A stretch of DNA of 64,000 nt, from the IMG/VR virus record IMGVR_UViG_3300045988_062793. One strand, given 5' to 3'. The stretch is from a virus. The notes below the pieces were generated by a model. The model did not search any database, had not been told where the DNA came from, and was given only the letters and a program-made list of their open reading frames with translations. The position numbers and the translations under genes are program-made. Shown piece after piece: positions 10,271 to 47,474 of the stretch (positions are counted from its first letter, which is position 1; each line of letters opens with the position of its first letter).

Positions 10271-10906
10271 ATGGCATATATTTATTGCATTACAAATTTA
10301 ATTAATAGCAAGCGATACGTAGGAAAAACTACTACTTCTATAGAAGAGCGCTGGAAGGAACATTGTTATGACTTTTAGAAAGAAAGATGCAACAAAAGAC
10401 CTTTATATGATGCCATGAATAAGTATGGTGTTGAGAACTTTATGATAGAGGAATTGGAATATGTAGATAGTAACTCTGAATTATCTGAAAGAGAAATCTA
10501 TTGGATAAAAGAGCTAGGAACTTATGGTTCTAATGGGTACAATGCCTCTAAAGGAGGAGATGGCACTATTCTATACAATCATAGTGAAATTGTAGAATTA
10601 GCTAGATTGGGATATACTAGTTCTTAGATACAAGAAAAAATAGGGTGCTGTAAAGACACTATTTACAAAGTTTTGAAGGCAAATAATATAAAAATTAGAA
10701 AAAGTAACGCAAAGTTAATTGCTTAGTATGACTTAGCAGGTAATTTTATACAGGTATTCTTTGGTTCCAGAGAAGCTTAGGAATGGTTAATTAATAACGG
10801 AATTACTGACAATAAATCTGCATAGAGTCATATTATAGGATGCTGTAAGAATAAAACCAAATCATAGTATGGCTATATTTGGAAATATCTTCCAGAGCCT
10901 ATTTAA
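10271..10906 (+). CDS. GIY-YIG homing endonuclease gene (N-terminal GIY-YIG domain, C-terminal HTH / GxIWKY-type DNA-binding region); single frame interrupted by 6 in-frame TAG codons and ending in TAA
   Basis: MAYIYCITNLINSKRYVGKT...RWKEH and ...RPLYDAMNKYGVENF...YWIKELGT...GYN...GG are GIY-YIG signatures; C-terminal ELARLGYTSS[TAG]IQEKIGCCKDTIYKVLK is a classic HTH. TAGs sit at 10376, 10625, 10724, 10778, 10823 and 10865; no TAA or TGA in frame until 10904. The ORF track splits it into 10115..10378 and 10415..10627. Confidence 0.7.
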
Positions 10907-16181: not shown

Positions 16182-16338
16182 AGGAATACTACCTGATTAA
16201 GTGCAGAAATAATATCCCATTCATTATAGGTCAGTATGATACCGAAGAAGATGCTAGGAAGGCGAAGAATCGTGAGAATCCTAATTCCGAGCTTATGATA
16301 GTAGTTAATATAGAAAAGGATAAGCCTGAGAAAACATC

Positions 16339-21749: not shown

Positions 21750-21786
21750 GATAGATAAAATGTTTAACTAATTAAAATTATTGAAA

Positions 21787-23835: not shown

Positions 23836-23851
23836 TTTAACTAATTTAATT

Positions 23852-24868
23852 ATGAAGAGAATTTTTAGTATTATTTGTTTGTGTTTGATGTGTGCATTTG
23901 CTAGCGCACAAGTTGTTGAGACTGGAAGTATGAAGGATAACTGGTATATTTCTGGTAATGTTGGAACTACTATTTGGGATAACCATAGAAGTTGGGCAGA
24001 ACCAAATGATGTACTAGTAAACATTGCTATTGGTAAGGAGATTACTCCTATCTTTGGCTTGGAGTTAGACATGATGGCTGGAATGAACCAAGGAAATAAA
24101 ACATTCTTTGATTCACATAATTTGACAGCTAACGTTACTACCAATCTTACTAACCTGATATGTGGATATAACGGAGATAGACGTCTGTTTGAGCCTATAT
24201 TAATCATTGGTGCTGGTTGGTATCATACTTATGGAGGTGTCTATAATAATGTATCCGCCCGTGGAGCCGTTAGATGTAACTTTAATATCTCTAATAGATG
24301 GGCATTAAATGTTACTCCTGAGTATATGTTACTTCCCAAGACTTCCCCTCTGAATCATGAGTTTAACATCTATATTGGTGCTACCTATCGCTTTAAGTCT
24401 AGCAAAGGGGACTTTCCAATTATGAAGTTGTATAGTGATGCCGAGGTTGAAAGCCTAAACGCTTCTATTAATGAGTTGAGAGCCAAGAATGAGGAACTTA
24501 TGGCTCGTAAACCAATAGAAATTGTTAAGACGGACACAATCGAAATTACTAAAGTAGAGCTTTTGACTCCAAAAATTCAATTCCTTCAAAATTCTTCAGA
24601 GATTTCTAAAACTTCCAATGTGGCTGTCTCAGAACTAGCTTCCTATATTTCTAATAGTGGAAAAGCTTATGTGATTGAGGGATATGCTTCGGAAGAGGGT
24701 CCAGAAGAGTTTAATAATAACCTCGCTGTAGCTAGAGCAGAATCTATGAAGAAAGCTCTGATTAGCTATGGTGCTCCAGAGGATAAGTTGGTTGTTAAGG
24801 GATGTGGAATTACCACTGAATTTGGAGATAATGAATTTAATCGTATCGTAATAATTTCTGAACAATGA
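23852..24868 (+). CDS. OmpA-family outer-membrane protein (signal peptide, beta-barrel-like N-terminal part, coiled-coil linker, C-terminal OmpA peptidoglycan-binding domain)
   Basis: Signal peptide MKRIFSIICLCLMCAFASAQ; alternating amphipathic strands; C-terminal ...AYVIEGYASEEGPEEFNNNLAVARAESMKKALISYG... resembles an OmpA_C domain. Confidence 0.65.
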   Translation: MKRIFSIICLCLMCAFASAQVVETGSMKDNWYISGNVGTTIWDNHRSWAEPNDVLVNIAIGKEITPIFGLELDMMAGMNQGNKTFFDSHNLTANVTTNLTNLICGYNGDRRLFEPILIIGAGWYHTYGGVYNNVSARGAVRCNFNISNRWALNVTPEYMLLPKTSPLNHEFNIYIGATYRFKSSKGDFPIMKLYSDAEVESLNASINELRAKNEELMARKPIEIVKTDTIEITKVELLTPKIQFLQNSSEISKTSNVAVSELASYISNSGKAYVIEGYASEEGPEEFNNNLAVARAESMKKALISYGAPEDKLVVKGCGITTEFGDNEFNRIVIISEQ

Positions 24869-28538: not shown

Positions 28539-28965
28539 TCATCCTTTTGGGAAAGAAGCTTGCAAGAAACGACTATTAGAAGAGTATCATAAATACAGAA
28601 AGCTAATAGTCGCTTTCGATTTTGATAATACTATTTTCGATTACCATAATACTGGCGGAGATTATAGTTGCGTTATAGAACTACTTAAAGAATGCTCACT
28701 TCTAGGTTTTGAAATGATTTTATTCACCACTGATGAAGATGATTATAAAATTATGGCAAAGCAGACAATTTGTATGCGATTAGGAATAGCAAATATTACT
28801 TCTAATACTTTATCTGCTCCAAACATTAGTAGTTCTATATTCTCTAAATCTAAGAAACCTTATTACAATATCCTCCTAGATGATAGGGCAGGTCTAGAAG
28901 AAAGTTATGAAATCTTAAAATATGTAGTAGATGAAATTAAACTTAATCAACAAGGAAATCAGTGA
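28501..28965 (+). CDS. HAD-superfamily phosphatase-like protein
   Basis: Motif I VAFDFDNTIFD (DxDxT). Confidence 0.45.
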   Translation: MKKSDKELTMDFNHPFGKEACKKRLLEEYHKYRKLIVAFDFDNTIFDYHNTGGDYSCVIELLKECSLLGFEMILFTTDEDDYKIMAKQTICMRLGIANITSNTLSAPNISSSIFSKSKKPYYNILLDDRAGLEESYEILKYVVDEIKLNQQGNQ

Positions 28966-29740
28966 AATTAAGTACGATGTTACTAGATTTCCTGATGGAG
29001 AGCCTCAGTTTTTCCTTACTGAGGAATTAAACAGAAAGGAATCTATTGATGTCATTTGTAGAATATCTAATACTGAGGATTTATTCCTCTTAATGCAAGT
29101 AGGAGATATTTTAGATAGACAAGAAGTAGAATGGGATTTACATATTACTTATTTAATGTCTATGCGTATGGATAGAGTAATGAGTTTTAATCGTCCATTC
29201 TCCTTGAAAGTAGTATGTAATATGTTAAATAGCTTAGGCTATAGAAACATATATGTTCTTGAGGCACATTCTAGTAGAACTTTTCATCTTCTTGGTGACA
29301 GATGTTTACCTTGGGAATTTGGACACTACTCTTGGATTCCAGCCCAAAGTAATATCGTGTTCCCAGACCATGGGGCGAAGGACAGATATGGAAGTAACTA
29401 TTCTCACTATGGTTATTTAGTCTTCAAAAAGGAAAGAAATCTAGAGACTGGAAGAATTGAGTCCTTTGAAATAGAGGAGTCTAAGAATTGCTACTATTCT
29501 ACATTTGTGTTCATTGATGACTTGTGTGATGCTGGAGGAACTTTCCTAGGAGAGCTTAAGGTTCTCAAAGAGAGATATCCAAATAGCAAGTTTATCATAA
29601 TCGTATGTCATGTAGTTAATGATAAAGGCCTGGTTAATATGTGTAATAATTTTGACCAGGTTATTGTATCTAATTCTCATAGGGATATTAATTATCGTCC
29701 CAGCAACGAGAACTTAACTGTAATAGACGTTTGTAAATAA
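28931..29740 (+). CDS. Ribose-phosphate pyrophosphokinase family protein (PRPP synthetase-like; alternatively ADPR-PP synthetase Adps)
   Basis: FPDHGAKDRYG (PDxGxxxRA-like) and PRPP-binding loop VFIDDLCDAGGT. Confidence 0.6.
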   Translation: MKLNLINKEISEIKYDVTRFPDGEPQFFLTEELNRKESIDVICRISNTEDLFLLMQVGDILDRQEVEWDLHITYLMSMRMDRVMSFNRPFSLKVVCNMLNSLGYRNIYVLEAHSSRTFHLLGDRCLPWEFGHYSWIPAQSNIVFPDHGAKDRYGSNYSHYGYLVFKKERNLETGRIESFEIEESKNCYYSTFVFIDDLCDAGGTFLGELKVLKERYPNSKFIIIVCHVVNDKGLVNMCNNFDQVIVSNSHRDINYRPSNENLTVIDVCK

Positions 29741-35353: not shown

Positions 35354-36444
35354 TTTCTGAGAAACTTCTTTATGAAATTGATAGAGGTAGATTGGGGTTA
35401 AATCATGGTATATCTATGAAGCTTCCTAAACTAGAGAGTATTATTGATGGAGTTACTAGGGAAACCTACACACTGATTCTATCTAACTCTGGTGCAGGTA
35501 AAACTTCATTTGCCCTTTATGCTTATGTTTATAGACCACTAATGGAACATCTTGATGATGATGATTTTAAGGTATTATATTTTAGTCTAGAGATGGGAGA
35601 AGTAGCCTTATATATTAAGCTATTATCCATATACATCTTCGAAACGTATGGAATACAATTATCTTTTAAGAAGATTCTTTCAAGAGAAAAGGAATATATT
35701 TTGTCAGAGGAACATTATGACCTAGTTAAGCAATGTATGCCCTGGGTAGATAAGATTAGTAAAAAGCTGGAAATCTATGACAAGAAAGTATCTCCAAAAA
35801 AGGTGTATGCTATCTTGAAAACTAGGTTAGAAGAAATGGGAACTTTTTCTGAAAGTGAGACGAGACTCCTATATAAGCCTAATAATCCTAATCTTATCTA
35901 TAATATCGTAGTAGACCATATTGGTCTAGTTGGTACTAAACCTGACATAGACTTACTTTCTAGCTATCTTCTCTTCTTTAGAGATAAGTGTGGTGTTAGT
36001 CCTGTAGTAATACAGCAAGCTAATAGAGAGCAAGGAAATATTGAAAGGTTTAAGCAGGGAAAGAGTGCGTTTACTATTCATGATGCTAAAGACTCTGGTA
36101 ATACTGTGCAGGATTGTAATATCATGATTGCATTGTATAATCCGCACAGGGATGGATTGAAAACTTATAAACATTATAATATTGAGTATCTAAATTCTTA
36201 TTTTAGAAGTATAATGGTACTTAAGAACCGATATGGTGATTGTGATGTTGAGGTTGGAGTAAACTTCTTTGGTTGGATTAATATGTTCCACGAGCTTCCA
36301 AAGCCCGATGAAATTTATGATTATGAAAGGTATACAAACCCAAATTATATACTAGAAGATAATAGTTCTATAGTAGAACAGGAGCTAGATGATATTACAG
36401 AATTAGATGATTCAAATGAAAACTTTAATTTTGCATTAGAATAA
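35350..36444 (+). CDS. DnaB-like replicative helicase (RecA-fold ATPase domain)
   Basis: Walker A LILSNSGAGKTSFAL, Walker B-like VVDHIGLV; size and context (adjacent to primase and SF2 helicase). Confidence 0.55.
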   Translation: MISEKLLYEIDRGRLGLNHGISMKLPKLESIIDGVTRETYTLILSNSGAGKTSFALYAYVYRPLMEHLDDDDFKVLYFSLEMGEVALYIKLLSIYIFETYGIQLSFKKILSREKEYILSEEHYDLVKQCMPWVDKISKKLEIYDKKVSPKKVYAILKTRLEEMGTFSESETRLLYKPNNPNLIYNIVVDHIGLVGTKPDIDLLSSYLLFFRDKCGVSPVVIQQANREQGNIERFKQGKSAFTIHDAKDSGNTVQDCNIMIALYNPHRDGLKTYKHYNIEYLNSYFRSIMVLKNRYGDCDVEVGVNFFGWINMFHELPKPDEIYDYERYTNPNYILEDNSSIVEQELDDITELDDSNENFNFALE

Positions 36445-37139
36445 TGGCTGCTGAAACAATTGCTATCGTAGGTGAATCAGGTACTGGAAAGAGTACAAGT
36501 TTAAGAAATCTTAATCCCGAAGAGACTTTTATTATAAGTACTACGGGTAAACCGCTCCCCTTTAGAGCATGGAAAAAGAAGTATATCCCTATTAAAATAG
36601 AGGGAAAGAACGTAAGTGGTAACTATTACGTTAGTTCCAAATGGGATCAAATTCTGAAAATTCTTCAAATTATTGACAAGATGATGCCTCAAATTAAACA
36701 GGTAATTATCGATGACTTCCAATATGTTCTCTCTTATGAGTTCGTTGATAGAGCAACAGAAGTTGGTTATACCAAATTTAGTGAGCTAGCTCAACACGCT
36801 ATGGAAATTCTGAGATATTCAGAAAAGATGAGAGAGGATTGTAAGATGATCTTCTTGACACACTCGGAGAATGTTGGAGACAATGTAAATCCTAAGTTTG
36901 TCATTAAAACTGTTGGAAAGTTGTTGTCTGAAAAGGTAACACTGGAAGGTCTGTTTACTTATATTTTCTTCACTAAGGTAAGTGAGGGAGATTCTGGTAG
37001 AATGGAGTACAAGTTAATCACTAATAATGATGGTACTTGTGTGGCTAAGACATCCTTTGGTATGTTTGAAGACCTAGAGATTGACAATGATTTGAATGAG
37101 ATTATCCATGTTATTGACGCTTATAATGAAGGAGAGTAA
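36444..37139 (+). CDS. Phage P-loop ATPase (AAA_24/Sak4-like), possible recombination or replication accessory
   Basis: N-terminal Walker A IAIVGESGTGKST; about 230 aa. Confidence 0.4.
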   Translation: MAAETIAIVGESGTGKSTSLRNLNPEETFIISTTGKPLPFRAWKKKYIPIKIEGKNVSGNYYVSSKWDQILKILQIIDKMMPQIKQVIIDDFQYVLSYEFVDRATEVGYTKFSELAQHAMEILRYSEKMREDCKMIFLTHSENVGDNVNPKFVIKTVGKLLSEKVTLEGLFTYIFFTKVSEGDSGRMEYKLITNNDGTCVAKTSFGMFEDLEIDNDLNEIIHVIDAYNEGE

Positions 37140-37720
37140 TGAAGTTAGACATACTGTTTCACTACGAGGTGAATGAACAAACTGGTGAAATCACCTATAT
37201 TGGGAAAGAAGAAATTTCTGTTGACACTAAGGCAACGAAAAGTGCTACCAAGACATCTACTAAGGCTTCTGCAGCCAAGGTAGATGCTAATCCAGATCCT
37301 ATTATTACGCTTGATTCCAACAAGTTAATATTAACTCAGGGAGCTGTAGACCTATTACAGGTTTGTGCAGATTGTCGAGTAGACATCAAGTATAAGAAGA
37401 AGGATAAGAAAGCAGTTCCTATTATTGGAACTGATGCCGCTTTTGGAACTAAAAGTGGAAACAAGTTAACAAAGAGTAATACTGTAAGTTATAGAGGTGC
37501 AGCTAATGAAAAGCTCTCAGCTTATGGTACTACCTTTAAACTAGAGCCTACAGAGGATAAAGGAATTTATTATCTAGTAGGAGATAAGATACAGGAAGAA
37601 AACTCTGTACCTGATGAGATAATTGATATTGAGAATGAACTCGATATAGAATCATTAGATAATATAAACATAGACGAAGATGACAAAGACTTAGAAAAAT
37701 TTGATTTTAATTTGAATTAA
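37139..37720 (+). CDS. Hypothetical acidic protein (193 aa)
   Basis: ORF track. Confidence 0.4.
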   Translation: MKLDILFHYEVNEQTGEITYIGKEEISVDTKATKSATKTSTKASAAKVDANPDPIITLDSNKLILTQGAVDLLQVCADCRVDIKYKKKDKKAVPIIGTDAAFGTKSGNKLTKSNTVSYRGAANEKLSAYGTTFKLEPTEDKGIYYLVGDKIQEENSVPDEIIDIENELDIESLDNINIDEDDKDLEKFDFNLN

Positions 37721-37722
37721 TT

Positions 37723-38418
37723 ATGGCATTTAATTTTGGTATATCAGCAGACTCAGCAGTAAGAAACACACGTCGTCCTTTAACTCCTTGGAACATCCAT
37801 GATGTAAAATTCATGGGATGTGAAATCAAAGAATTTGATGGTAAAAAGGATCCAACGGCTCATTATAAAGTTCTAGCAATCAACTTTGAGAACGAAGAGG
37901 GTTACTTCTCTGTAACCCAATTCTTCCCTAAAGCTGGCGATGATGAGAGACGTGAGTTTGATAGTAAGAATGGTGGAAAGGTTATCATGCCTTCCAACTT
38001 CGAGACTTTGATGGCTGTAGTTAAGCAGACTGCACAGGTTCTCAATCCTGCAGGATTTGAAAAGATGCAAGCAGCTAGCTCTAAATTTAAGAGCTTCGAT
38101 GATGTAGCTAAGGCTCTGATTACTATAACTGAAAAAGTTAAAGGTACAGAGACTAAGTTGAAGTTGATTGGTAGAAACCGTGATGGTAAAGTAGTTGCTG
38201 ATATACCTCGTATCGTAGGTATTAACAAACAAGGTGAGTCGTTCATCTCTGATAACTATATTGGTGACAAGCTGTTCTTCTCTGACTATGAGGAGGGAGA
38301 ACGTCAGAAGTATCTGAAAGCTAAGCCTACCGAAATGAAGTCAGAAGACCCGATTGCAGATGTTGCCGGTGTAGATGCTGCACCAGGAAATGACTTCGAT
38401 CTTGACAACTTGCTATAA
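37723..38418 (+). CDS. Hypothetical protein (231 aa), replication module (possible ssDNA-binding protein, not verified)
   Basis: ORF track. Confidence 0.4.
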   Translation: MAFNFGISADSAVRNTRRPLTPWNIHDVKFMGCEIKEFDGKKDPTAHYKVLAINFENEEGYFSVTQFFPKAGDDERREFDSKNGGKVIMPSNFETLMAVVKQTAQVLNPAGFEKMQAASSKFKSFDDVAKALITITEKVKGTETKLKLIGRNRDGKVVADIPRIVGINKQGESFISDNYIGDKLFFSDYEEGERQKYLKAKPTEMKSEDPIADVAGVDAAPGNDFDLDNLL

Positions 38419-38452
38419 TGATTTGTTAGTAGAGTAATTCATAAATTCCTTA

Positions 38453-39472
38453 GTGACTATGTTTGATTATACTTTTGAACCCAAAATTACTAAGGAATTT
38501 CTTCTATCTAAGAACAATGAGGAGACTTACATGACTTATTATCTGGGTATTCCAGTTAAGAAAGGACTGTTCAAGTCTCCTTTGCGTAGTGACAGTCATG
38601 TCACCTGCAGCTTTTTTAGAGGAAAATCTGGAAACTTATATTTTAAGGACTTTGCTTCCGGAAAATGTTTGACATTCGAAGGGGTAGTTATGGAAAAGTA
38701 TAATTGTAACTATCACACTGCTTTAAAGATTATAGCTAAGGACTTTGGATATACTAAGGATTCTCCTGTAAAGAAGATTGCAGTAAAAATCCAGCCGAAA
38801 TTTGAGGAAGAAAAACAAACCTTCATCCAAATAGAAGCTAAGGAGTTCTCAGAACCTGAGTTGAAGTGGTGGGGAAGCTTTGGTATTACTAAAGATATTC
38901 TACATAGGTTTAAGGTATACAGTTGTAGTACTGTATTCTTAAATGGAAATATATATGCACAGTCTGCCCAACATAGTCCTATCTATGGATATTATTTTGG
39001 GAAGAAAGAGAACATCGAGCAATGGCGTATTTATATGCCAAAACGAAAGGAGTTTAGATTCATAGGTAATGTTTCTACTAAGACTATTCAAGGCTATAAA
39101 CAATTAGCTAAGACTGGAAAACTGGTAGTAATAACTAAGTCTATGAAAGATGTAATGTGTTTATATTCTTTAGGAATACCAGCTATAGCTCCCAACTCTG
39201 AGACTCAGTTTGTTTCTGACAAAGTTTTAGAAGAATTAAAGCAGAGATTCAAATACATTGTGTTGCTATATGATAATGACCTAACTGGAGTTCGTTTTAC
39301 TAATAAGATTAGGAAACAACATCCAGAATTAATCGTATCAATGATTCCCAGAAACACAGGAGCTAAGGATATAAGTGATTACTATAGGGACTATGGAAGA
39401 AAAGCTACTCAGGAGTTGATTAAGTTAACTATTGACAAATTTAAAAGAAATGGTATTTTACGTAGTAATTAA
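38453..39472 (+). CDS. DNA primase (Toprim domain)
   Basis: Toprim-like VVITKSMKDVMCLYSLGIPAIAPNSE ... VLLYDNDLTG (E ... DxD); N-terminal Cys/His cluster. Confidence 0.55.
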   Translation: MTMFDYTFEPKITKEFLLSKNNEETYMTYYLGIPVKKGLFKSPLRSDSHVTCSFFRGKSGNLYFKDFASGKCLTFEGVVMEKYNCNYHTALKIIAKDFGYTKDSPVKKIAVKIQPKFEEEKQTFIQIEAKEFSEPELKWWGSFGITKDILHRFKVYSCSTVFLNGNIYAQSAQHSPIYGYYFGKKENIEQWRIYMPKRKEFRFIGNVSTKTIQGYKQLAKTGKLVVITKSMKDVMCLYSLGIPAIAPNSETQFVSDKVLEELKQRFKYIVLLYDNDLTGVRFTNKIRKQHPELIVSMIPRNTGAKDISDYYRDYGRKATQELIKLTIDKFKRNGILRSN

Positions 39473-39626
39473 TGATACTGGAGAAAACTTTATTTCTGGA
39501 GACGAAGAAGCACTAATATCCAAATTTCCTAGACAGACAGTATATAGGTGTGAGCTTCCAGCCGGAGCGTGTGTAAATACACAAGACTTATTGGACTTTA
39601 TAAATGAGCAACTCGTTATTGACTAG
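39432..39626 (+). CDS. Small hypothetical protein (64 aa)
   Basis: ORF track. Confidence 0.35.
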   Translation: MTNLKEMVFYVVINDTGENFISGDEEALISKFPRQTVYRCELPAGACVNTQDLLDFINEQLVID

Positions 39627-39676
39627 AGAAACCCTAGAGATGTAAAGTTAATGAAAAAATAAATAGAATAAACGGA

Positions 39677-40222
39677 ATGAAAAAGTAGACTAATACAAGT
39701 GTTACAGCTACATTTAAAAATGGAGAAAAGAAAACCTTCGAAACTATAGAAGAAGCCTCAGAAGTAACTGGCTTAGAGATAAACTCTATTAAAGCTAGGG
39801 CTAATAAACCTGGCTCTGGAGCTAAATCGAAAGATGGAATTACCTTTGAATGGGCAGATCCTGCAGTTAGAAGAAGTAAGCAAGCGAAGAAAAGTAAACA
39901 AAAAGGTTCTCAATATGAGTTAGAAATAATTCATAAATTGAGAGATGTTGGATATGAAGGATGTGTATCTAGTAGAAGCCAGAACAAACTGGCTGATGCT
40001 GACAAAATAGATATTGTTGATATGAACAATGAACTTCCAGTTAATATCCAAGCCAAGTTTACCCAAAATATGCCAAACTATTTTGACATTAGGGACGCTT
40101 GTAGTGATAAATCTAAACCGTTCTGTATATGTTGGAAGAAGGCAGGAAAGAACGGGGCACCTAGCGTGGGTCAAGTAGCTGTAATACCTATAGAATATTT
40201 TTATGAATTGCTTAAGAAATGA
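39677..40222 (+). CDS. HTH (homing-endonuclease-type DNA-binding motif) plus PD-(D/E)xK nuclease gene whose 4th codon is an in-frame TAG
   Basis: Frame reads MKK[TAG]TNTSVTATFKNGEKKTFETIEEASEVTGLEINSIKARANKPGSGAKSKDGITFEWAD (NUMOD/IENR1-like HTH), then ...DADKIDIVDMNNELPVNIQAKF (D...D...QxK). The ORF track has only the C-terminal part, 39938..40222. Confidence 0.5.
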
Positions 40223-40467
40223 AAAAGTTAATAGTTAAAGGTCCAATTCCTACGATTAAGAACTGTGTAGTTAATGACTTTGATGACGAGTATGCCCTCT
40301 ATTTGAGGACAGCTAAGAAGAATTGGAGAACTGAGGAAGCATTTTCTCTAGAATTTGACTCTACATTATCTGATTTGAAAAAGAGTCACTTTGTCTACGT
40401 GGATAGAGAAGACCTTGAACTTTTAATTAAGAAGCGATTAAATGTTATTGAAGTAATCGAGTTATGA
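40219..40467 (+). CDS. Hypothetical protein (82 aa)
   Basis: ORF track. Confidence 0.4.
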   Translation: MKKLIVKGPIPTIKNCVVNDFDDEYALYLRTAKKNWRTEEAFSLEFDSTLSDLKKSHFVYVDREDLELLIKKRLNVIEVIEL

Positions 40468-40685
40468 ACACATATTTATTTCCATGGCATACAGATGAAG
40501 TCTGTAGAATTGGTAAAGTGGTAGCTAGAAGCTACGAGGATTGTGAAGAAAAAATAAAGAGTATGTATATAAATAAGTACGACGATTTAGATGATCTTCT
40601 GGATTATGATGATTTCTGCGAAGAACTTGCCGATAAACATAGGATATATTTAGGAGAAGTATCTGAGATAAATGAATTTATGTAA
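40464..40685 (+). CDS. Hypothetical acidic protein (73 aa)
   Basis: ORF track. Confidence 0.4.
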   Translation: MNTYLFPWHTDEVCRIGKVVARSYEDCEEKIKSMYINKYDDLDDLLDYDDFCEELADKHRIYLGEVSEINEFM

Positions 40686-41190
40686 TCCATTGAGAATAGC
40701 ACTAGACTTGGATGATACTATCTTTGACTTTTGGGGAGCTTACAAGGCTCTATTTCCAAGGGAATCTGATTTAGTTGAACACGTAATTACACGGAACGTA
40801 GTAAGTCTTCGCTATAATAAGGAGTTTTGGGAAAATTTACCCTTGCTAGAGAAACCAAATTTTGAACCATATATTTATGCCACAAAGAGAATAAACAGTA
40901 AGGTTTATACTAGGAATTGTCTAGCTAAATACAATTTACCCATAAGACCTATTTATCAAATGTATTATCAGCATGGAAATAAGGCTGACTTGATAAAAGG
41001 CAAATGCGATGTATTAATTGATGATAGTATTAGTAATGTACAAATGGCTATCAATTCTGGTCTTCCAGCCCTGTTAATTGACAGACCCCATAATCAGAAT
41101 GGAGACCCATTATTTCGCATTTATAGTTTAGATATTAACGAAATTAGATTTGCATATGAATTAGAATTAGAGACTTTAGGATGGAATTAA
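40672..41190 (+). CDS. HAD-superfamily hydrolase, possible 5'(3')-deoxyribonucleotidase
   Basis: Motif I RIALDLDDTIFDF (DxDxT). Confidence 0.4.
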   Translation: MNLCNPLRIALDLDDTIFDFWGAYKALFPRESDLVEHVITRNVVSLRYNKEFWENLPLLEKPNFEPYIYATKRINSKVYTRNCLAKYNLPIRPIYQMYYQHGNKADLIKGKCDVLIDDSISNVQMAINSGLPALLIDRPHNQNGDPLFRIYSLDINEIRFAYELELETLGWN

Positions 41191-42230
41191 AAGACATCAA
41201 GCTTAGACCTCTGCTAGACACGCTAAGGTTAGAGAAGATAAGTGATAAGGTGTATTTTTCCGAGCAATATAGTGGATATGTAAGTAATTCTCGTTTGGGA
41301 TTAATTAATCCTAGGCAAGATGGAAATCCAGATAAATTTTTCACTGGATTTAAAAATACCTTCTCTTCTGCACTTGAGCTTGGTAGTGCCGTACACGAAC
41401 TCGTGTTACAGCCAGATAGTTTTGAGCTTTCAGAAGACATTGGTAAACCGACTGCTAAGTTGGGAGCGATGGCTAATGAGCTTTATCCAGTTTTCCTTAA
41501 GGGAGATGTAAAATTTGATGATGTGAAGGCTGCTTCAGATAAAGTTGAATATTACAAAGGAAAACTTACCAAAGACCTAGCTAAGTCTGTTATTGAAGCA
41601 TCTACCAATTATTGGAAGAATAGACAGCTTAAAGAATTTGATTTGGCTCAGGATAAGGAAATTATATACCTTGATAATAAGTCACTAGAAATCGTAAAAT
41701 CTTGTGTGGCTGCATTAAATAGCAATAAGCAAGTACAGAAACTTTTACATCCTGAAGGGATAACTAAAACACCTATTTCTGAAAATGAGCAAGCTATTTT
41801 ATTGGACGTGGAAGCTACTTGTCCCAACGGCAAGAAGTTCATTTTGCACTTAAAGTCCAAATTAGATAATTATACCATAGATATGGAGACTAACACTATT
41901 GTAGTGAATGATATAAAAACTATTGGTAAGATTGTCAGTGAAATTGACAATAATATCAAGAAGTTTCATTACAGTAGAGAGTTTGCAATGTATTTATATC
42001 TTCTGAAGCTATGTGCTGAGAAGTTCTATCACCTAAAGAATCCTAAAATCCAAGCTAATTACTTGGTAGTTTCTACTATTCCAAACTTTTATAGTAAGGT
42101 TAGACCGGTTACTTATGGAGAATTACGTGAGGGATTTCATGAGTTTAAAACTCTATTGAAGTATGTAGCATATCAGATAGGTTATAGAGACTATTCTCTG
42201 GATGAACGACCTTCAAAATATCAGCTTTGA
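41181..42230 (+). CDS. Putative PD-(D/E)xK family nuclease (phage exonuclease-like)
   Basis: D...E...VVNDIKT-type motif and a YSREFAMYLY segment; weak assignment. Confidence 0.3.
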   Translation: MELKDIKLRPLLDTLRLEKISDKVYFSEQYSGYVSNSRLGLINPRQDGNPDKFFTGFKNTFSSALELGSAVHELVLQPDSFELSEDIGKPTAKLGAMANELYPVFLKGDVKFDDVKAASDKVEYYKGKLTKDLAKSVIEASTNYWKNRQLKEFDLAQDKEIIYLDNKSLEIVKSCVAALNSNKQVQKLLHPEGITKTPISENEQAILLDVEATCPNGKKFILHLKSKLDNYTIDMETNTIVVNDIKTIGKIVSEIDNNIKKFHYSREFAMYLYLLKLCAEKFYHLKNPKIQANYLVVSTIPNFYSKVRPVTYGELREGFHEFKTLLKYVAYQIGYRDYSLDERPSKYQL

Positions 42231-42552
42231 AAAATTGTCAGCAATTTATAGCAAATACTTTACCTTAAATTACCTAAATAGCAATATGGGAGATAAACTA
42301 GCTTGTATTGCTCTCACTTGTTATATAACTAATGAGTTAAGGAAAAAAGGTCAAAAAGTAACTTGTTATGATGTTCTCCTAAAAGTAGGTAACGACTTTG
42401 GGGAGGTGGAAAAAAATACCTTCCTGAAGTCCCTAGGGGCCATTTGCGAGGATTTAATGTATGGGTGTAATACTTTCCTTGACTTTGGAATAAAGCCCAA
42501 GGATATGCCCAAACAACTCAAAATTTTGCTAGACAATTATGTACCATTTTAA
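42202..42552 (+). CDS. Hypothetical protein (116 aa)
   Basis: ORF track. Confidence 0.4.
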   Translation: MNDLQNISFEKLSAIYSKYFTLNYLNSNMGDKLACIALTCYITNELRKKGQKVTCYDVLLKVGNDFGEVEKNTFLKSLGAICEDLMYGCNTFLDFGIKPKDMPKQLKILLDNYVPF

Positions 42553-42566
42553 TGTTAAAAATTTTT

Positions 42567-43028
42567 ATGATATATCTATTAAGAAACAACAACTTTTTGA
42601 AGATAGGCTTCGCTAAAGATGTCTAGAGGAGAATGAAGTGCTATAATACCTGCGCCTTTGGATATCAATTGTTAGATGTAAGGGATGGAGATAAACAGGT
42701 AGAAAAGCTACTCCATAAGATGTTTAGAAAATACTAGGTAGCTAAGGAATGGTTTGAAGATAACAACTATATTATCTTACACTTTCATGATAGTGTAGAG
42801 AGACTAGTAGAATAGTCTCAAAATATTGCCAAGTAGAGAAAATACATCAGAGTCTGGACCTCAAGGGGCATATTCTATAAGGATTACGATTCCATATAGG
42901 AATGTTCATAGAGTTTAGGTTTTCCGATATAGGATATAAAGAATGCTTTAACTAATAAAAAGACAAAAGTCGGAAATTTTATTATTTAGCATAAGGTGTG
43001 TGACTAGGGTCAATTTAACACCCTTTAA
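42567..43028 (+). CDS. T5orf172/GIY-YIG-superfamily endonuclease-like gene interrupted by 9 in-frame TAG codons (the only stops in the frame before the terminal TAA)
   Basis: Translation MIYLLRNNNFLKIGFAKDV[*]RRMKCYNT...YQLLDVRDGDKQVEKLLHKMFRKY[*]VAKEWFEDNNYIILHFHDSVERLVE[*]SQNIAK[*]RKYIRVWTSRGIFYKDYDSI[*]ECS[*]SLGFPI[*]DIKNALTNKKTKVGNFII[*]HKVCD[*]GQFNTL; N-terminus fits the GIY/KIG...R motif. The region otherwise appears as a 620-nt noncoding gap. Confidence 0.55.
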
Positions 43029-43174
43029 CATAAAATTAACATTTAAAGATTAGGGTTTCCCTAAATTACGAAGTATAATTGATTACATCAGTAAGGGAAA
43101 CGATACTGATTAGATACAGAAAAATAGTTCTAGATTATATGTTAATGATTTATGTTTAAAATTTTTTATTTATT

Positions 43175-43732
43175 ATGAGTACAACGATTTTGAATTTTAA
43201 GAAAGTAGAAGTAGTAGCAGAAAGCAAAGAAGCAGCAATCGCACAAGTAGAAAGCACATTGTTCCACGTAAACGGAGATGCAACACAGGCTTACAAAAAT
43301 TGGAAAGCTAAACAGACTAAGGGTATCACAGAGCGTGATGTAAAAGAGTTCATGCTTGAATATCTTGCAAAGAAAGGTAAGAACTGCCCTGGTGCTGGTT
43401 ATTTGATTACTGTTGAATCGTCTGTTGCTGACACTCGTGAGCGTCCGTATAAGATTGACGATGTTAAGGGTGATGGAAAACGTAAGTTTAAAACATTCTA
43501 CAAGTGGATTGACAAGGAAACTCAGACAGTAGTTTGTCAGGTTGATACTAACAAGGCTGACGCTAAGAATGCAATTAAGGAGCTGTATAAGAGCGGTAAG
43601 TACAAAGGAAATGCTGAGTTAGTAAAGACTAAGGATGTTGTTGAGGGACAAGCTGTAGTAGCAACTGCACAATATACTCCTTCTAAGAACACTAAGAACG
43701 GTACTTGGATTGCTTTCGGTATCGAAGCCTAA
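43175..43732 (+). CDS. Hypothetical protein (185 aa, Lys-rich) followed by a strong terminator; possibly highly expressed
   Basis: ORF track; strong terminator downstream. Confidence 0.5.
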   Translation: MSTTILNFKKVEVVAESKEAAIAQVESTLFHVNGDATQAYKNWKAKQTKGITERDVKEFMLEYLAKKGKNCPGAGYLITVESSVADTRERPYKIDDVKGDGKRKFKTFYKWIDKETQTVVCQVDTNKADAKNAIKELYKSGKYKGNAELVKTKDVVEGQAVVATAQYTPSKNTKNGTWIAFGIEA

Positions 43733-43756
43733 TTTCTTAAAGATATAAGTTTTAAA

Positions 43757-43789
43757 AGGAAGATTACCTTAGGGTGGTCTTCCTTTTTT
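43757..43789 (+). terminator. Rho-independent terminator (stem aggaagat/gtcttcct plus T6)
   Basis: 7-8 bp stem with a 12-nt loop followed by tttttt. Confidence 0.65.
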
Positions 43790-43866
43790 ATTTTGAGATA
43801 AATTTAAGTTTGATAGATATAAAACGTAATTTAATTATGAAAGTGTAACAACTAATTAACGATTAA

Positions 43867-44553
43867 ATGGATAAATGGAAACGGTACACAGGTGAAGAAA
43901 TCCTGTATAATGCTTTGGACGAGAATGGGGTAGTCAGTAATGAACCTATGTTAGAAGATGCAGTAAAACTAGGTATAAGCACATCCTCTAATGGGGAATG
44001 TATACTACTAAAGTTTTATTGGACAGATGGATTTGGATGGTACTTCAAAGATGGAAAAATAACCTTTATATTGCACGAATGCAAAGTAGGGGATTCTGTT
44101 GTGGGTAGGACTATGAGAGGATACAAAACTTGCCTAAAGAAAGCACTTCTTCAAGATATAGGTTATTACTTCAAAATAAAGAACTACCAATATACCAAGT
44201 TTAGTAAAAAATTAAAAGATTTGGCGGAGGAGTTTGGTTATACAGATATCAATAAATTCATTATTGACCACTTTGGGATGTTTTTGATAACAACTCCGAA
44301 GTTTGTATGTCATGCAACTATGACTGAAGATATTAAAAGATTAATTAATACCTTAGAAGATTCAATATCTAAAGCTACAAGTTCCCCAAGTGAGTATTGG
44401 GGAGATAAGACATCTAATATGAAGCAAATTATGCTGGATTTTGATGCAGATGACCTACCGTTTGAGATGATGCCAGACAGAGTAGATTTGGCAGACACTG
44501 GAGAGATACTTAATAGTATATTAAAAGAAGAAATAAATGGAATTGACGATTGA
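43867..44553 (+). CDS. Hypothetical protein (228 aa)
   Basis: ORF track. Confidence 0.45.
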   Translation: MDKWKRYTGEEILYNALDENGVVSNEPMLEDAVKLGISTSSNGECILLKFYWTDGFGWYFKDGKITFILHECKVGDSVVGRTMRGYKTCLKKALLQDIGYYFKIKNYQYTKFSKKLKDLAEEFGYTDINKFIIDHFGMFLITTPKFVCHATMTEDIKRLINTLEDSISKATSSPSEYWGDKTSNMKQIMLDFDADDLPFEMMPDRVDLADTGEILNSILKEEINGIDD

Positions 44554-45304
44554 ACAATTGATGCAGGGAAAGGCAACTAGAATTAAGGATAAGGAGTATT
44601 TTACTACAGAAGCTTATGTGACTCCGTTTATAGACAGAGTATCTAAGATGACTGATAACTTTATCATTAATGCTAAGCCTGCCGACCAAATATCACTTAC
44701 TAAAGACGGGGAGATTAATTTTGACGATGTAATATACAATAGAGTTTGGATTCAAGGAGTTTTACCTGACGAATATGCTTGGGACAATCATAAGAGAGTA
44801 ATCAGTATGATTTATGCTCTAGATACTCGTAAACCATTAGTTAAGTTCTATGTAGGAGCTTTGAATATGGCTTGTCTAAATCTTTGTGTATTTAATCCAG
44901 AAATGTTAAATGTTTCTGAGCTAGAGCCTGAATCTGCTATTAACTATAGCTTTTTGAGAAATGCTATGTCAATGACAGACGAAACTAACTTGATGCTTAA
45001 GAAGCTTTCAGAGATGGAATATAAGAAAGATGATATATACGCTGACCTAGGCCACTGGGTTGATAATTGCATCAATTCTAAAATCAATATGGGATTTGGT
45101 TCTGTAAAATTAGCTGAATCTGCTCCGATTGACGTTTATAAAGATTTATTTTATGATGAAAAATCTAAGTATTATACGACGGACAATGTTGTAGACGGAT
45201 TTACTGTGTATAACGCATTTACTGACCTGATTACCCAAGATAAGAGAGATTTGGTTAATAAATTTGAGAAGACATTGTTAATTAAGGACGTAATGGGTAT
45301 TTAA
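44537..45304 (+). CDS. Hypothetical protein (255 aa)
   Basis: ORF track. Confidence 0.45.
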   Translation: MELTIEQLMQGKATRIKDKEYFTTEAYVTPFIDRVSKMTDNFIINAKPADQISLTKDGEINFDDVIYNRVWIQGVLPDEYAWDNHKRVISMIYALDTRKPLVKFYVGALNMACLNLCVFNPEMLNVSELEPESAINYSFLRNAMSMTDETNLMLKKLSEMEYKKDDIYADLGHWVDNCINSKINMGFGSVKLAESAPIDVYKDLFYDEKSKYYTTDNVVDGFTVYNAFTDLITQDKRDLVNKFEKTLLIKDVMGI

Positions 45305-45305
45305 T

Positions 45306-47474
45306 ATGCAGGTAGTAAAAAGAGACGGAAGTTTACAGGAGTTTGATAGTAATAAAATAGTAGAAGCAATATCTAAGGCATTTAACGCCTGCTGCCCAGA
45401 TGAGAACAGAGACGTTATTAATGCTATGGTATCAGATATGCATTTATGGGATGGAATTACTATTGAAGAAATTCAAGATGTTGTAATTGAGACCTTGAGA
45501 GACTATGGTTATGATGATGTAGCCTCGGCTTATTCTCAATATAGAAGTGAGCAATCTAGGCTTAGAGAAATCATAGCTAAGATTAGTTATCAAGACAACT
45601 ATATAAATAGTTCTGAAAATGCAGCCACTTCATCTGAAACAGATGGAAATGCTAATGTTGTATCTAAGAATGTTGCTACATTAGAAAGTGAAGACAGAAA
45701 GCGCGAAAACAGAGAAATTCAACGCTATCGTATGAAGAAGAAATTAAAACTTCTTTATCCTGAATTATCTTCCCAATATGCTAGAGACTTAGATAGTCAT
45801 ATTATCTATACTCATGATGAAGCTTCTACCTCAGTACTTAAACAGTATTGTATGGCAGTTTCATTATATCCCTTAATGCTTGAAGGAGTAGGCAATATCG
45901 ACGGAGTTACTCCAGGTCCTCCTAATGATTTGCAGTCATTCAGTGGACAGGTTACTAATCTAGTATTTCTACTGTCTTCTCAATGTAAAGGAGCAGTAGC
46001 TGTGGGAAGCTACTTCATTGCTCTTAATTATTACATCATAGCTGAATATGGAGAAAAATGGTATGAAAAGCTTGGCTGTATATGTACCTCCGAGCATTCA
46101 CTCATTAAGCGTACTATTAAAGACAGTATTCTCAAAGCATTCAAACAATTTGTTTGGGGAATTAATCAGCCTGCTGGAAATAGAAGCTATCAGTCGCCCT
46201 TTACTAATGTATCATATTATGATAAGACATACTTCGAGTCCTTGTTTGGAGAGTTTTATTATCCAGATGGAACGAAACCGGAGTGGAGTGCGATTGATAC
46301 ATTGCAAAGACTATTTATGTCTTGGTTCAACAAGCTGCGTTTGAAACAGGTACTAACCTTCCCAGTTGAAACTTTCGCTATGGTGCATGACGGAAAAGAT
46401 ATTATAGATAAGGAATACAAAGATTTGTGTGCAGAAATGTATGCACAAGGTCATAGTTTCTTTACTTATATTTCTGATAGTGCAGATAGTCTAGCTTCGT
46501 GTTGTAGACTTCGTAATGAATTGGCGGAGAATACATTTAGTCCTACCTCTGGTATGACTGGAGTGAAAACTGGTTCTTGTAATGTAATTACTTTAAACAT
46601 TAACAGAATTGTTCAGGATTGGGCTAAGGAAGAAACCACCTGGTGGAGTGAAGAGGGAGATAAGAATCTTCTTCATTGCAAAGACAATATTCCACTGCTC
46701 AAGAAATACTTAGTGAATATTCTAGAAAGAGTTTATAAGTATCACATTACTTATAAGACTATGCTCTATGAATGGGAAGAAAAGAAGATGTTTGCTTCTT
46801 CTAATGGTGGATATATCAATATTAAAGACCTATACAGTACTATTGGTTTAAATGGTTTGAATGAAGCTGCTGAGTTCCTGGGACTGAAAGTATCTAATAA
46901 TCCAGAGTATTTCGAGTTCTTGCAGCTAATCCTCGGAACTATTAAGGAGCAGAATAAGATTCATTCCATCCACGATAAGAAAAGACCTTTCCTATTTAAT
47001 TCTGAAGTTGTTCCAGCAGAGGGACTTGGTGGTAAAAATTATAGATGGGATAAAGAAGATGGATATTGGGTTCCAGAAGATAGGAATTTGTACAATAGCT
47101 ATTTTTATAATGCCCATGATGATACCTCTGTATTAGATAAGTTTATACTTCATGGGAGACAGACTTATCAATATACTGATGGGGGTAGCGCAGCTCACAT
47201 AAACCTAGAGGAACATTTATCTAAGAAGCAGTATTTGAAGCTCATAGATTTTGCTATTGAACAAGGAACTAACTACTTTACGTTTAATATTCCGAACAGT
47301 AAGTGTGAGGATTGTAAACATATTGTAAAAGCCCCAATCAAAGTATGTCCAAAGTGTGGAAGTGAGCATATTACCCAGTATACTAGAATTATTGGCTATC
47401 TAAGACCTATTACTGCATTTGGTAAGGATAGAAGAATAGAAGCTGAAAAGAGAACTTATTCAAAAAGTGTATAA
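45306..47474 (+). CDS. nrdD: Anaerobic ribonucleoside-triphosphate reductase (class III) with N-terminal ATP-cone
   Basis: ATP-cone VVKRDGSLQEFDSNKIVEAI; C-terminal Zn-ribbon CEDCKH...CPKCGSEH and glycyl-radical motif RIIGYLRPI. Confidence 0.8.
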   Translation: MQVVKRDGSLQEFDSNKIVEAISKAFNACCPDENRDVINAMVSDMHLWDGITIEEIQDVVIETLRDYGYDDVASAYSQYRSEQSRLREIIAKISYQDNYINSSENAATSSETDGNANVVSKNVATLESEDRKRENREIQRYRMKKKLKLLYPELSSQYARDLDSHIIYTHDEASTSVLKQYCMAVSLYPLMLEGVGNIDGVTPGPPNDLQSFSGQVTNLVFLLSSQCKGAVAVGSYFIALNYYIIAEYGEKWYEKLGCICTSEHSLIKRTIKDSILKAFKQFVWGINQPAGNRSYQSPFTNVSYYDKTYFESLFGEFYYPDGTKPEWSAIDTLQRLFMSWFNKLRLKQVLTFPVETFAMVHDGKDIIDKEYKDLCAEMYAQGHSFFTYISDSADSLASCCRLRNELAENTFSPTSGMTGVKTGSCNVITLNINRIVQDWAKEETTWWSEEGDKNLLHCKDNIPLLKKYLVNILERVYKYHITYKTMLYEWEEKKMFASSNGGYINIKDLYSTIGLNGLNEAAEFLGLKVSNNPEYFEFLQLILGTIKEQNKIHSIHDKKRPFLFNSEVVPAEGLGGKNYRWDKEDGYWVPEDRNLYNSYFYNAHDDTSVLDKFILHGRQTYQYTDGGSAAHINLEEHLSKKQYLKLIDFAIEQGTNYFTFNIPNSKCEDCKHIVKAPIKVCPKCGSEHITQYTRIIGYLRPITAFGKDRRIEAEKRTYSKSV

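What the first reader, a model, noticed from the sequence alone, without database searches (positions are those of the whole stretch)
39677..40222. HTH plus PD-(D/E)xK nuclease gene starting MKK-TAG: third TAG-containing endonuclease
The homing-endonuclease-type HTH (TATFKNGEKKTFETIEEASEVTGLEINSIKARA...GITFEW) begins immediately after an in-frame TAG at codon 4. There is no alternative ATG, GTG or TTG start between that TAG and the domain. The PD-(D/E)xK part (DKIDIVD...IQAKF) follows in the same frame. Expression of the full protein therefore requires TAG read-through.
Basis: partly seen in the sequence, partly recalled or inferred. Interest (0 to 1): 0.6.

Follow-up and report, generated by a model that had tools for sequence, protein, structure and literature searches.

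The report
Conserved early amber codon gating a nuclease
A gut phage that reads the TAG stop codon as an amino acid, using its own suppressor tRNAs, keeps a single TAG within the first few codons of a core DNA-junction-cutting nuclease gene, most likely so that the nuclease is made only once those tRNAs are active.

Summary
The sequence ATG AAA AAG TAG lies at 39677-39688. An open frame follows to the TGA at 40220-40222, and the first canonical start after the TAG is TTG at 39938.

The window is the standard-coded replication module of an uncultured human-gut phage of about 186 kb. Same-species contigs carry two tRNA(CUA) genes 7-10 kb upstream of the window. Their late genes are full of in-frame TAGs; the large terminase has 15. 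TAG read-through is therefore supported.

The protein has a NUMOD/I-HmuI-like DNA-binding domain and an Hjc-type PD-(D/E)xK nuclease domain. It is not a mobile homing endonuclease, because all 75 primase loci that could be evaluated have it directly after the primase gene.

The unusual part is the codon itself. Of 59 distinct gene sequences, 57 have one TAG at codon 3-6 or 10, and further relatives down to 43% identity have it too. CAA or CAG never replaces it there, although synonymous sites are saturated and other Gln codons switch freely.

The best reading is a selected "amber gate" that ties nuclease synthesis to the phage suppressor tRNAs. The general idea is already published (Borges et al.). 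This positionally conserved single-codon case is a new variant of it.

The parts
39677..40222 (+). Complete gene: 181 codons plus the TGA stop, with TAG as codon 4. It encodes an HTH plus Hjc-like nuclease.
   Evidence: Homologues of 181-183 aa were called with Q at the TAG position.
39677..39685 (+). Start codon and the Lys-Lys leader (M-K-K) that precedes the amber codon.
   Evidence: The leader is M-K-K, M-A-K-K, M-V-K-K, M-R-K-K, M-S-K-K or M-K in relatives. TAG-less homologues (L086, L089) run uninterrupted from the equivalent ATG. This shows that the ATG is the start.
39686..39688 (+). In-frame TAG (codon 4), the proposed 'amber gate'.
   Evidence: At this alignment column there are 53 TAG, 0 CAA and 0 CAG among 59 distinct sequences. 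Four more sequences have the TAG shifted by one to six codons. dS between lineages is above 1.5. Residues 1-5 are disordered in the model.
39698..39856 (+). N-terminal DNA-binding domain (residues about 8-60), NUMOD/I-HmuI-like.
39857..39907 (+). Basic helical linker (residues about 61-77, PAVRRSKQAKKSKQKG).
   Evidence: Helix 62-76 in the AlphaFold model, with lower pLDDT of about 70.
39908..40219 (+). PD-(D/E)xK nuclease domain of the Hjc/Hje type (residues about 78-181). Candidate catalytic residues are E81 (39917-39919), D112 (40010-40012), Q125 (40049-40051) and K127 (40055-40057).
38453..39472 (+). Primase (Toprim) gene, the conserved upstream neighbour. In most relatives its 3' end overlaps the nuclease start by 17-40 nt.
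39432..39626 (+). Small ORF (64 aa, ending in TAG) inserted between the primase and nuclease genes in the window-type genomes only.
   Evidence: It is absent from the L002-type and L004-type arrangement. The primase-to-nuclease distance is +204 in 16 loci and -17 in 30 loci.
10271..10906 (+). GIY-YIG homing-endonuclease gene with 6 in-frame TAGs. It is given for context as another TAG-bearing gene of the module.
   Evidence: PHROG_314 homing endonuclease, E 4e-31.
42552..43028 (+). T5orf172/GIY-like endonuclease gene with 9 in-frame TAGs. It is a mobile insertion, given for context.
   Evidence: Window 42566-43013 is missing from the 99.3% identical genome L019.

Best explanation
The gene encodes a two-domain nuclease: a NUMOD-like DNA-binding domain joined to an Hjc-type PD-(D/E)xK domain. 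It is most likely a resolvase for branched or Holliday-junction DNA. It is a core gene of the replication module of a TAG-recoded gut phage of about 186 kb. Translation starts at the ATG at 39677. After Met-Lys-Lys the ribosome meets TAG. With host machinery alone, release factor terminates there and only a tripeptide is made. Once the phage's own tRNA(CUA) suppressors are present, TAG is decoded, most likely as Gln, and the 181-aa protein is made.

The TAG is kept by selection as a TAG, not as a Gln codon. It acts as a gene-specific translational gate that delays and/or limits nuclease synthesis. This matters because the gene is embedded in, and in most relatives translationally overlapped with, the standard-coded early primase operon. 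Placing the gate in the disordered first few codons avoids making a truncated DNA-binding fragment.

Shown: the anatomy, the conservation, the suppressor tRNA genes, the genome-wide recoding pattern and the fold. Inferred: decoding as Gln, the timing or attenuation role, and the junction-resolving activity.
For: (1) Anatomy is established.

(2) A suppression mechanism exists. Contig L081 is 99.55% identical to window 1-5147 and has tRNA(CUA) genes on both strands, 6.8 and 9.6 kb upstream of the window. The same two genes are in IMG/VR UViG_3300007184_000001, which is 99.3% identical to window 35689-44671.

(3) The genome is recoded in its late half. In L092 the large terminase has 15 TAG against 16 CAA/CAG, and TAG read-through doubles the total length of ORFs of 80 aa or more. 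In the distant relative MT835492.1, coverage by ORFs of 100 aa or more in the minus-strand half rises from 4-28% to 83-100% when TAG is read through. The half that holds the nuclease is unchanged.

(4) TAG appears to mean Gln. In three variants TAG replaces CAA/CAG at the otherwise Gln columns 69 and 102 of this very gene. The minus-strand suppressor is closest to the phage tRNA-Gln(UUG), at 71% identity.

(5) There is selection on the TAG itself. Of 59 distinct sequences, 57 have exactly one early TAG, at codon 3, 4, 5, 6 or 10. CAA and CAG are never found at that column. At seven other Gln columns CAA and CAG interchange (for example 24/16 and 25/30), and 28% of between-cluster Gln pairs differ. 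dN/dS is 0.007-0.2 and dS is above 1.5. More distant lineages keep the TAG too: MKKT*E, MSKK*V, MK*KE and MSKSN*N.

(6) The position shifts but stays 5'-proximal. L087 has it at codon 10 in place of a variable Ser/Lys/Ala residue. This fits selection for an early stop rather than for a particular residue.

(7) The ATG is the real start. The TAG-less homologues L086 and L089 are continuous from it.

(8) Overlap with the primase frame does not explain the conservation. The primase-to-ATG distance ranges from -40 to +816 nt (three calls near -180 are probably alignment-extension artefacts).

(9) In two lineages that are 47% identical, the only genes of the standard-coded half that clearly have internal TAGs are homing endonucleases and this nuclease.

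(10) The published hypothesis is that recoded stops block premature translation, and it includes a homing endonuclease sitting in an early gene (bioRxiv 10.1101/2021.08.26.457843).
Against: There are no expression, tRNA-charging or peptide data, so both the timing and the inserted amino acid are inferred. One of the two suppressor tRNA genes lies on the plus strand at the head of the early tRNA array. Suppression may therefore begin early, in which case the TAG would attenuate expression rather than delay it. Two lineages (L086, L089/L090) lack the TAG even though their contigs also appear to be called with TAG as a sense codon, so the gate is dispensable. A few lineages have TTG or ATG one or two codons after the TAG (L177, L179, L185, and the database proteins starting MNTS...), which could bypass the gate. 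Not every nuclease of the module has a TAG: the HNH gene near 5330-5864 and the Exo VIII-like gene at 41181-42230 have none. The 59 sequences are phylogenetically related, so the counts are not independent. There are about 11 clusters at 85% identity, plus about 5 more distant lineages. The 121-kb partial scaffold MT835492.1 has no tRNA(CUA) in the part that is available.
Confidence: 0.62

Rival explanations
1. This is ordinary code-15 usage. TAG is simply one of three Gln codons in a recoded phage. It happens to sit at codon 4 and has no regulatory role. Its persistence reflects shared ancestry or mutational bias.
For: The phage is clearly TAG-recoded and carries suppressor tRNAs. TAG does occasionally substitute for CAA/CAG at two other Gln columns of this gene. 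Two lineages have lost the TAG without obvious consequence.
Against: TAG is replaced by CAA or CAG in none of the 57 TAG-bearing sequences, across about 14 lineages with saturated dS. Two-fold codons differ in 17-42% of between-cluster comparisons. The TAG moves between codons 3 and 10 but is always single and always 5'-proximal. Where the column is not TAG it holds E, D or N rather than Q, so Gln is not what is conserved. About 300 other Gln codons in the family include only 3 TAGs.
Confidence: 0.17
2. MKK-TAG is a three-codon upstream mini-ORF that really terminates. The nuclease would then be made by re-initiation or initiation at a non-canonical start just downstream, without suppression.
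For: In a minority of lineages a TTG or ATG lies one or two codons after the TAG (L177, L179, L185; database proteins P0008, P0010, P0052 and P0097 were called as MNTS...). The gene start overlaps the primase stop in most relatives, which is a layout typical of termination-reinitiation coupling.
Against: In the window and most relatives the codon after the TAG is ACT, GCT, GTA, ACA, CTT, GCG, GCA or TTA, with no conserved start of any kind. The invariant N6 is only two codons after the TAG. The TAG-less homologues translate straight through the leader. In L087 the TAG lies at codon 10, inside the conserved N-T-x-V segment, where a downstream start would truncate the domain.
Confidence: 0.07
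3. It is a free-standing homing endonuclease gene, a selfish mobile element like the GIY-YIG and T5orf172 genes. Its TAG would reflect origin in, or spread among, recoded phages.
Against: The gene is present at the same place, right after the primase gene, in 75 of 75 evaluable loci. Its divergence tracks that of the primase: 100/100, 93/92, 72/74, 57/54 and 56/43%. dN/dS is 0.007-0.2. It has a single TAG, against 6-9 in the real mobile endonuclease genes.
Confidence: 0.05
4. It is a pseudogene or an assembly error: a nuclease gene inactivated by a nonsense mutation.
For: Under the standard code the ORF is interrupted at codon 4 and has no usable start.
Against: The same interruption appears in dozens of independent assemblies and lineages. 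The ORFs are otherwise intact, purifying selection is strong, and the catalytic residues are invariant.
Confidence: 0.01

Closest known systems
TAG-to-Gln (genetic code 15) recoding in human and animal gut phages with phage-encoded suppressor tRNAs (crAss-like, Lak and the 'gemstone' clades). Sources: Borges et al., bioRxiv 10.1101/2021.08.26.457843; Peters et al., PMC9523058.
   Same: The phage encodes tRNA(CUA). Its structural and packaging genes are full of in-frame TAGs, while its replication module is in standard code. TAG is rarely used as a terminator. The published proposal is that recoded stops block translation until the code switch.
   Different: Published evidence for regulation is statistical enrichment of recoded codons in lysis and structural gene families. 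Here a single TAG is fixed within the first 3-10 codons of one core gene inside the standard-coded module. It is never exchanged for CAA or CAG over deep divergence. The phage lineage has no annotated representative in the GenBank phage set.
[quoted passage not shown]
   Same: It is a nuclease gene located in early, standard-coded DNA. Its in-frame recoded stops are expected to prevent production until late.
   Different: That case uses TGA-to-Trp, involves a mobile intron endonuclease, and has preferential multiple recoding. The present case uses TAG, involves a non-mobile core nuclease, and has one positionally conserved codon next to the start.
Archaeal and viral Holliday junction resolvases Hjc/Hje (PDB 1gef, 1hh1, 1ob8, 2wcw; Thermus phage 15-6 resolvase 7bgs).
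   Different: The third catalytic acid is Gln (Q125), invariant in the family. An extra N-terminal NUMOD-like DNA-binding domain and a basic linker are fused. Sequence similarity is below the Pfam threshold. Activity is untested.
NUMOD/IENR-type DNA-binding modules of the homing endonucleases I-HmuI and I-TevI.
   Different: The module is attached to a different nuclease fold, and the gene is not mobile.
Post-transcriptional delay of phage T4 endonuclease VII (gene 49). From my own recollection, not checked here, translation from the early transcript is blocked by an RNA hairpin and the enzyme is made from the late transcript.
   Same: It is a functional analogy. A junction-resolving nuclease needed before packaging is kept from being translated early although its gene is transcribed.
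   Different: The mechanism is entirely different: RNA structure in T4, dependence on a suppressor tRNA here. There is no sequence relationship.

Membership tests
TAG-recoded (code 15-type) phage genome | In-frame TAGs in conserved, clearly functional genes, with ORFs fragmented under the standard code | tested here: met
   The large terminase has 15 in-frame TAGs, and total ORF length doubles with TAG read-through in L092. The late half of MT835492.1 goes from 4-28% to 83-100% ORF coverage.
TAG-recoded (code 15-type) phage genome | Phage-encoded suppressor tRNA with a CUA anticodon | tested here: met
   There are two tRNA(CTA) genes in L080-L082 and L092, which are same-species contigs. None lies inside the 64-kb window itself.
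TAG-recoded (code 15-type) phage genome | TAG aligns with Gln in homologues | tested here: met
   TAG replaces CAA/CAG at Gln columns 69 (two sequences) and 102 (one sequence) of this gene family. The sample is small.
TAG-recoded (code 15-type) phage genome | Peptide-level evidence of an amino acid at TAG | not testable with these tools
   This needs metaproteomics. The predicted tryptic peptide is QTNTSVTATFK.
Hjc-type Holliday junction resolvase (Pfam PF01870; PD-(D/E)xK) | PD-(D/E)xK core fold similar to Hjc/Hje | tested here: met
Hjc-type Holliday junction resolvase (Pfam PF01870; PD-(D/E)xK) | Catalytic E ... D ... E-x-K tetrad | tested here: inconclusive
   E81, D112 and K127 align and are invariant, but the third acid is an invariant Gln (Q125).
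Hjc-type Holliday junction resolvase (Pfam PF01870; PD-(D/E)xK) | Sequence match above the family's curated threshold | tested here: not met
   PF01870 is matched by only 2 of 23 members, with best E 0.083. The PDB profile hit to 1hh1 has E 0.084.
Hjc-type Holliday junction resolvase (Pfam PF01870; PD-(D/E)xK) | Dimeric, structure-specific cleavage of four-way junctions | not testable with these tools
   This needs a biochemical assay.
RusA-type resolvase (the label of PHROG_244) | RusA fold or Pfam RusA match | tested here: not met
Free-standing homing endonuclease gene | Sporadic presence or absence among close relatives (mobility) | tested here: not met
   The gene is present after the primase gene in 75 of 75 evaluable loci. 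The other 5 contigs end before the site.
Free-standing homing endonuclease gene | NUMOD/IENR-type DNA-binding module | tested here: inconclusive

The most novel reading that the evidence does not exclude
The lone amber codon at the 5' end is an evolved, gene-specific translational switch. Selection maintains it as a stop-in-the-host-code so that a junction-cutting nuclease, co-transcribed and translationally coupled with the early primase, is produced only when, and in proportion as, the phage's own suppressor tRNAs reprogram the cell. It would be the first single-codon, positionally conserved example that shows directly, by evolutionary evidence, that phage code switching is used as a regulatory device outside the late gene block.
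Probability: 0.55. Interest if true: 0.65.

Novelty: new variant of a known kind. Interest (0 to 1): 0.52.

Why it matters
Stop-codon recoding in gut phages is well documented. The idea that it works as a timer for gene expression, however, rests mainly on which gene classes are enriched in recoded codons. This gene offers a clean and minimal test case. It has one TAG in a disordered leader, and that TAG has been kept for the whole history of a widespread gut phage lineage while every comparable synonymous site has turned over. A TAG-to-CAG swap, or a reporter fused to the first 15 codons with and without the two phage tRNA(CUA) genes, would directly measure what the code switch does to one protein.

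There is also a practical consequence for annotation. Standard-code gene callers will miss or truncate this core nuclease, as well as the homing endonucleases of the replication module. The gene could also serve as a marker for recoded genomes even in fragments that look standard-coded.

Tried and rejected
(1) I looked for a suppressor tRNA inside the window and found none. ARAGORN finds 16 tRNAs, none with CTA. Rfam adds a tRNA-Ala(UGC)-like gene at 11978-12050 and a weak tRNA-like element at 5166-5245, neither of which is a suppressor. The suppressors were found only by walking upstream in same-species contigs.

(2) I considered a primase-nuclease fusion made by programmed frameshifting at the A-rich start (GAA AAA G). 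I rejected it. A shift before the TAG still runs into the TAG. The sequence after the TAG is variable. The two genes are 191-816 nt apart in many genomes.

(3) I considered that the overlapping primase reading frame conserves the TAG. I rejected it for the same reason.

(4) I considered the 11-nt repeat AATGAAAAAGT at the starts of this gene and of the next gene (39676 and 40218) as an insertion scar. I rejected it as chance similarity between two M-K-K starts, because the gene occupies this site in all relatives, including those with different flanks.

(5) The sigma-70 promoter and terminator scan around the gene gave fewer hits than shuffled sequence and is not informative.

(6) Pfam alone gave only sub-threshold hits. 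Fold comparison was needed to classify the domains.

(7) The GenBank phage set has no annotated relative, only two unannotated fragments from a Mexican faecal study.

(8) An apparent TAG at codon 7 of the Exo VIII-like gene in L089 turned out to be an over-extended start call.

(9) Whether the TAG-less lineages (L086, L089) belong to standard-code phages could not be settled from the 10 kb available.

(10) The MT835492.1 scaffold (121 kb, partial) shows the recoded late half but has no tRNA(CUA) in the part that is available.

Full report
**1. The observation**

Window 39677-39688 reads ATG AAA AAG TAG. The frame then stays open for 177 codons to the TGA at 40220-40222. The first ATG/GTG/TTG after the TAG is TTG at 39938, at codon offset 83. 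That is far inside the protein, and invariant residues already begin at N6.

**2. What the window is**

- All long ORFs are on the plus strand, and GC content is about 35%.
- The window encodes DnaB-like and SF2 helicases, a Toprim primase (38453-39472), NrdD, DNA and RNA ligases, NAMPT, DNA polymerase A and 16-18 tRNAs. It is the replication and nucleotide-metabolism module of a phage.
- Contigs that carry identical proteins are about 184-192 kb long and come from very many human-gut samples.
- The GenBank phage set holds only unannotated fragments of this phage.

**3. Is there a way to read TAG?**

The window has no tRNA(CUA). Walking upstream from the first window gene gave contigs that are 98-99.6% identical to the window. 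These carry two tRNA(CUA) genes, one on each strand, 6.8 and 9.6 kb before the window start.

The same pair is in IMG/VR UViG_3300007184_000001 (187,677 bp). That genome is 99.3% identical to window 35689-44671. Beyond the tRNAs, on the opposite strand, its genes are full of in-frame TAGs. The large terminase has 15 TAG against 16 CAA/CAG.

A distant relative, MT835492.1, has a nuclease that is 47% identical. Its genome is sharply bipartite. The half with the replication genes reads equally well in both codes. The other half goes from 4-28% to 83-100% coverage by long ORFs when TAG is read through.

In the window, long plus-strand ORFs end in TAA 62 times, TGA 33 times and TAG 4 times. Two of the four TAG cases are internal TAGs of the GIY-YIG gene.

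This is therefore a TAG-recoded phage of the known kind (Borges et al.; Peters et al.).

**4. What the protein is**

- Sequence profiles give only weak hits: NUMOD-like (E 0.06), PHROG_244 'RusA-like resolvase' (E 4e-10) and Hjc (E 0.08).
- An AlphaFold model built on 23 homologues has a mean pLDDT of 85, with residues 1-5 disordered.
- The profile alignment to Hjc places the invariant E81, D112, Q125 and K127 on the Hjc E-D-E-K positions.

The third acidic residue is, however, a conserved Gln.

**5. Not a homing endonuclease**

Searching with the primase returned 80 loci. The nuclease gene follows the primase gene in 75 of them. The other five contigs end before the site. Nuclease divergence tracks primase divergence down to 43% identity.

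dN/dS is 0.007-0.2. The neighbourhood, running from DnaB through the primase and nuclease to Exo VIII-like and NrdD, is conserved.

By contrast, the T5orf172-like gene with 9 TAGs (42552-43028) is simply absent from a 99.3% identical genome. GIY-YIG copies also vary between close contigs.

**6. The TAG itself**

Across 59 distinct gene sequences, 57 have exactly one early TAG: 53 at the window's column, 3 one column earlier, and 1 at codon 10. CAA and CAG are never found at that column.

At seven other Gln columns the same sequences switch freely between CAA and CAG. TAG appears at those columns only three times, each time at a Gln column, which supports TAG = Gln.

dS between clusters exceeds 1.5. 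Two-fold codons differ in 17-42% of between-cluster comparisons.

More distant lineages keep the feature with small shifts:

| Lineage | N-terminal reading |
|---|---|
| L177 | M-K-K-T-TAG |
| L179 | M-S-K-K-TAG |
| L185 | M-K-K-TAG |
| L186 | M-K-TAG |
| MT835492.1 | M-S-K-S-N-TAG |

Two lineages lack the TAG and run straight on from the ATG: L086 (MKRKKELNES) and L089 (MAKKKLELNES). This shows that the ATG is the true start and that the leader is translated.

The codon after the TAG varies (ACT, GCT, GTA, ACA, CTT, GCG, GCA, TTA), so there is no hidden start. The primase stop lies anywhere from 40 nt inside the gene to 816 nt upstream of it, so an overlapping frame does not explain the conservation.

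**7. Interpretation**

The data fit a TAG that is selected as a TAG. It would be a translational gate that makes synthesis of the nuclease depend on the phage suppressor tRNAs.

The biological logic is inferred. A junction-cutting enzyme is useful late, to debranch DNA before packaging, and is potentially harmful during replication. Yet the gene sits in the early primase operon, and in most relatives it overlaps the end of the primase gene.

Putting the gate in the first few disordered codons means that only a tripeptide is made in the 'off' state.

In two lineages that are 47% identical, the only genes of the standard-coded half that clearly have internal TAGs are homing endonucleases and this nuclease.

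One suppressor gene lies at the head of the plus-strand tRNA array. The effect may therefore be attenuation as much as delay.

**8. Relation to what is known**

TAG recoding, phage suppressor tRNAs and the 'code switch as timer' hypothesis are published. So is the remark that a recoded homing endonuclease in an early gene of Agate phages should be held back until late.

Within the searches I ran, I did not find a single, positionally conserved, 5'-proximal recoded stop in a non-mobile core gene of the standard-coded module, nor codon-level evidence of selection for the stop itself. I therefore rate this a new variant of a known kind, of moderate interest.

**9. Limits**

All functional statements are inferences from sequence. 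This covers the amino acid inserted, the timing and the substrate. The sequence counts are not phylogenetically independent. Two lineages do without the TAG, and a few could bypass it through a nearby TTG or ATG.

Noticed in passing
window 42552-43028 (+): A T5orf172/GIY-like endonuclease gene with a C-terminal HTH and 9 in-frame TAGs fills an apparent gene gap. Window 42566-43013 is missing from a 99.3% identical genome (L019), so it is a recent mobile insertion.
   Followed up: partly
window 10271-10906 (+), next to tRNA-Cys at 10166-10251: A GIY-YIG homing-endonuclease gene with 6 in-frame TAGs (PHROG_314, E 4e-31). Public gene calls extend it upstream over the tRNA. Close contigs differ in the number of GIY-YIG copies (L081 has an extra one at 16112-16516).
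   Followed up: partly
L081 341-413 (-) and 3165-3235 (+); also L092 10540-10612 and 7104-7174: Two different tRNA(CUA) suppressor genes lie on opposite strands at the boundary between the plus-strand (replication) block and the minus-strand (late, TAG-rich) block. The minus-strand one resembles the phage tRNA-Gln(UUG). The plus-strand one (71 nt) resembles no particular phage tRNA, so its amino-acid identity is open.
   Followed up: partly
L081 6787-7248 (+): A PDDEXK_5 (PF11645) nuclease gene with 3 in-frame TAGs lies in the plus-strand tRNA region upstream of the window. It is another TAG-bearing nuclease in otherwise standard-coded DNA.
   Followed up: no
window 39432-39626 (+): A 64-aa ORF of unknown function, ending in TAG, is inserted between the primase and nuclease genes in window-type genomes only. 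Other relatives have the two genes overlapping, or have different inserts of 191-816 nt at the same junction. This suggests a hotspot for insertions.
   Followed up: partly
window 11978-12050 (+) and 5166-5245 (+): Rfam finds a tRNA-Ala(UGC)-like gene with a mispaired acceptor stem (39.5 bits) and a weak tRNA/tmRNA-like element (30 bits) just upstream of an HNH endonuclease gene. ARAGORN misses both.
   Followed up: no
window 21308-21942: A stretch of about 630 nt has no convincing ORF in either code on the plus strand. It could be regulatory or hold an RNA gene. No Rfam family passed the threshold there.
   Followed up: no
window 14417-15106 and 39432-39626; MT835492.1 (L189) 23111-24088, 28871-29653 and 44859-45575: Several replication-module genes appear to end in TAG, with the next TAA or TGA only 2-11 codons further on. 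After the code switch these proteins would gain short C-terminal extensions.
   Followed up: no
window 54878-56245 and downstream loci L083-L085 (10904-15467): There is a dense tRNA/RNA-repair set: an RNA ligase, a tRNA_lig_CPD-like protein, a PNKP-like kinase/phosphatase, a Thg1-like enzyme and a CCA-adding/poly(A) polymerase-family protein. A phage sigma factor, Tad2-like and sequestin-like genes are also present. This suggests counter-defence against tRNA-targeting host systems.
   Followed up: no
window 39676-39686 and 40218-40228: The same 11-mer, AATGAAAAAGT, covers the start codons of this gene and of the next gene (MKKLIV...). I judged it a coincidence of two M-K-K starts rather than a duplication scar.
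   Followed up: partly
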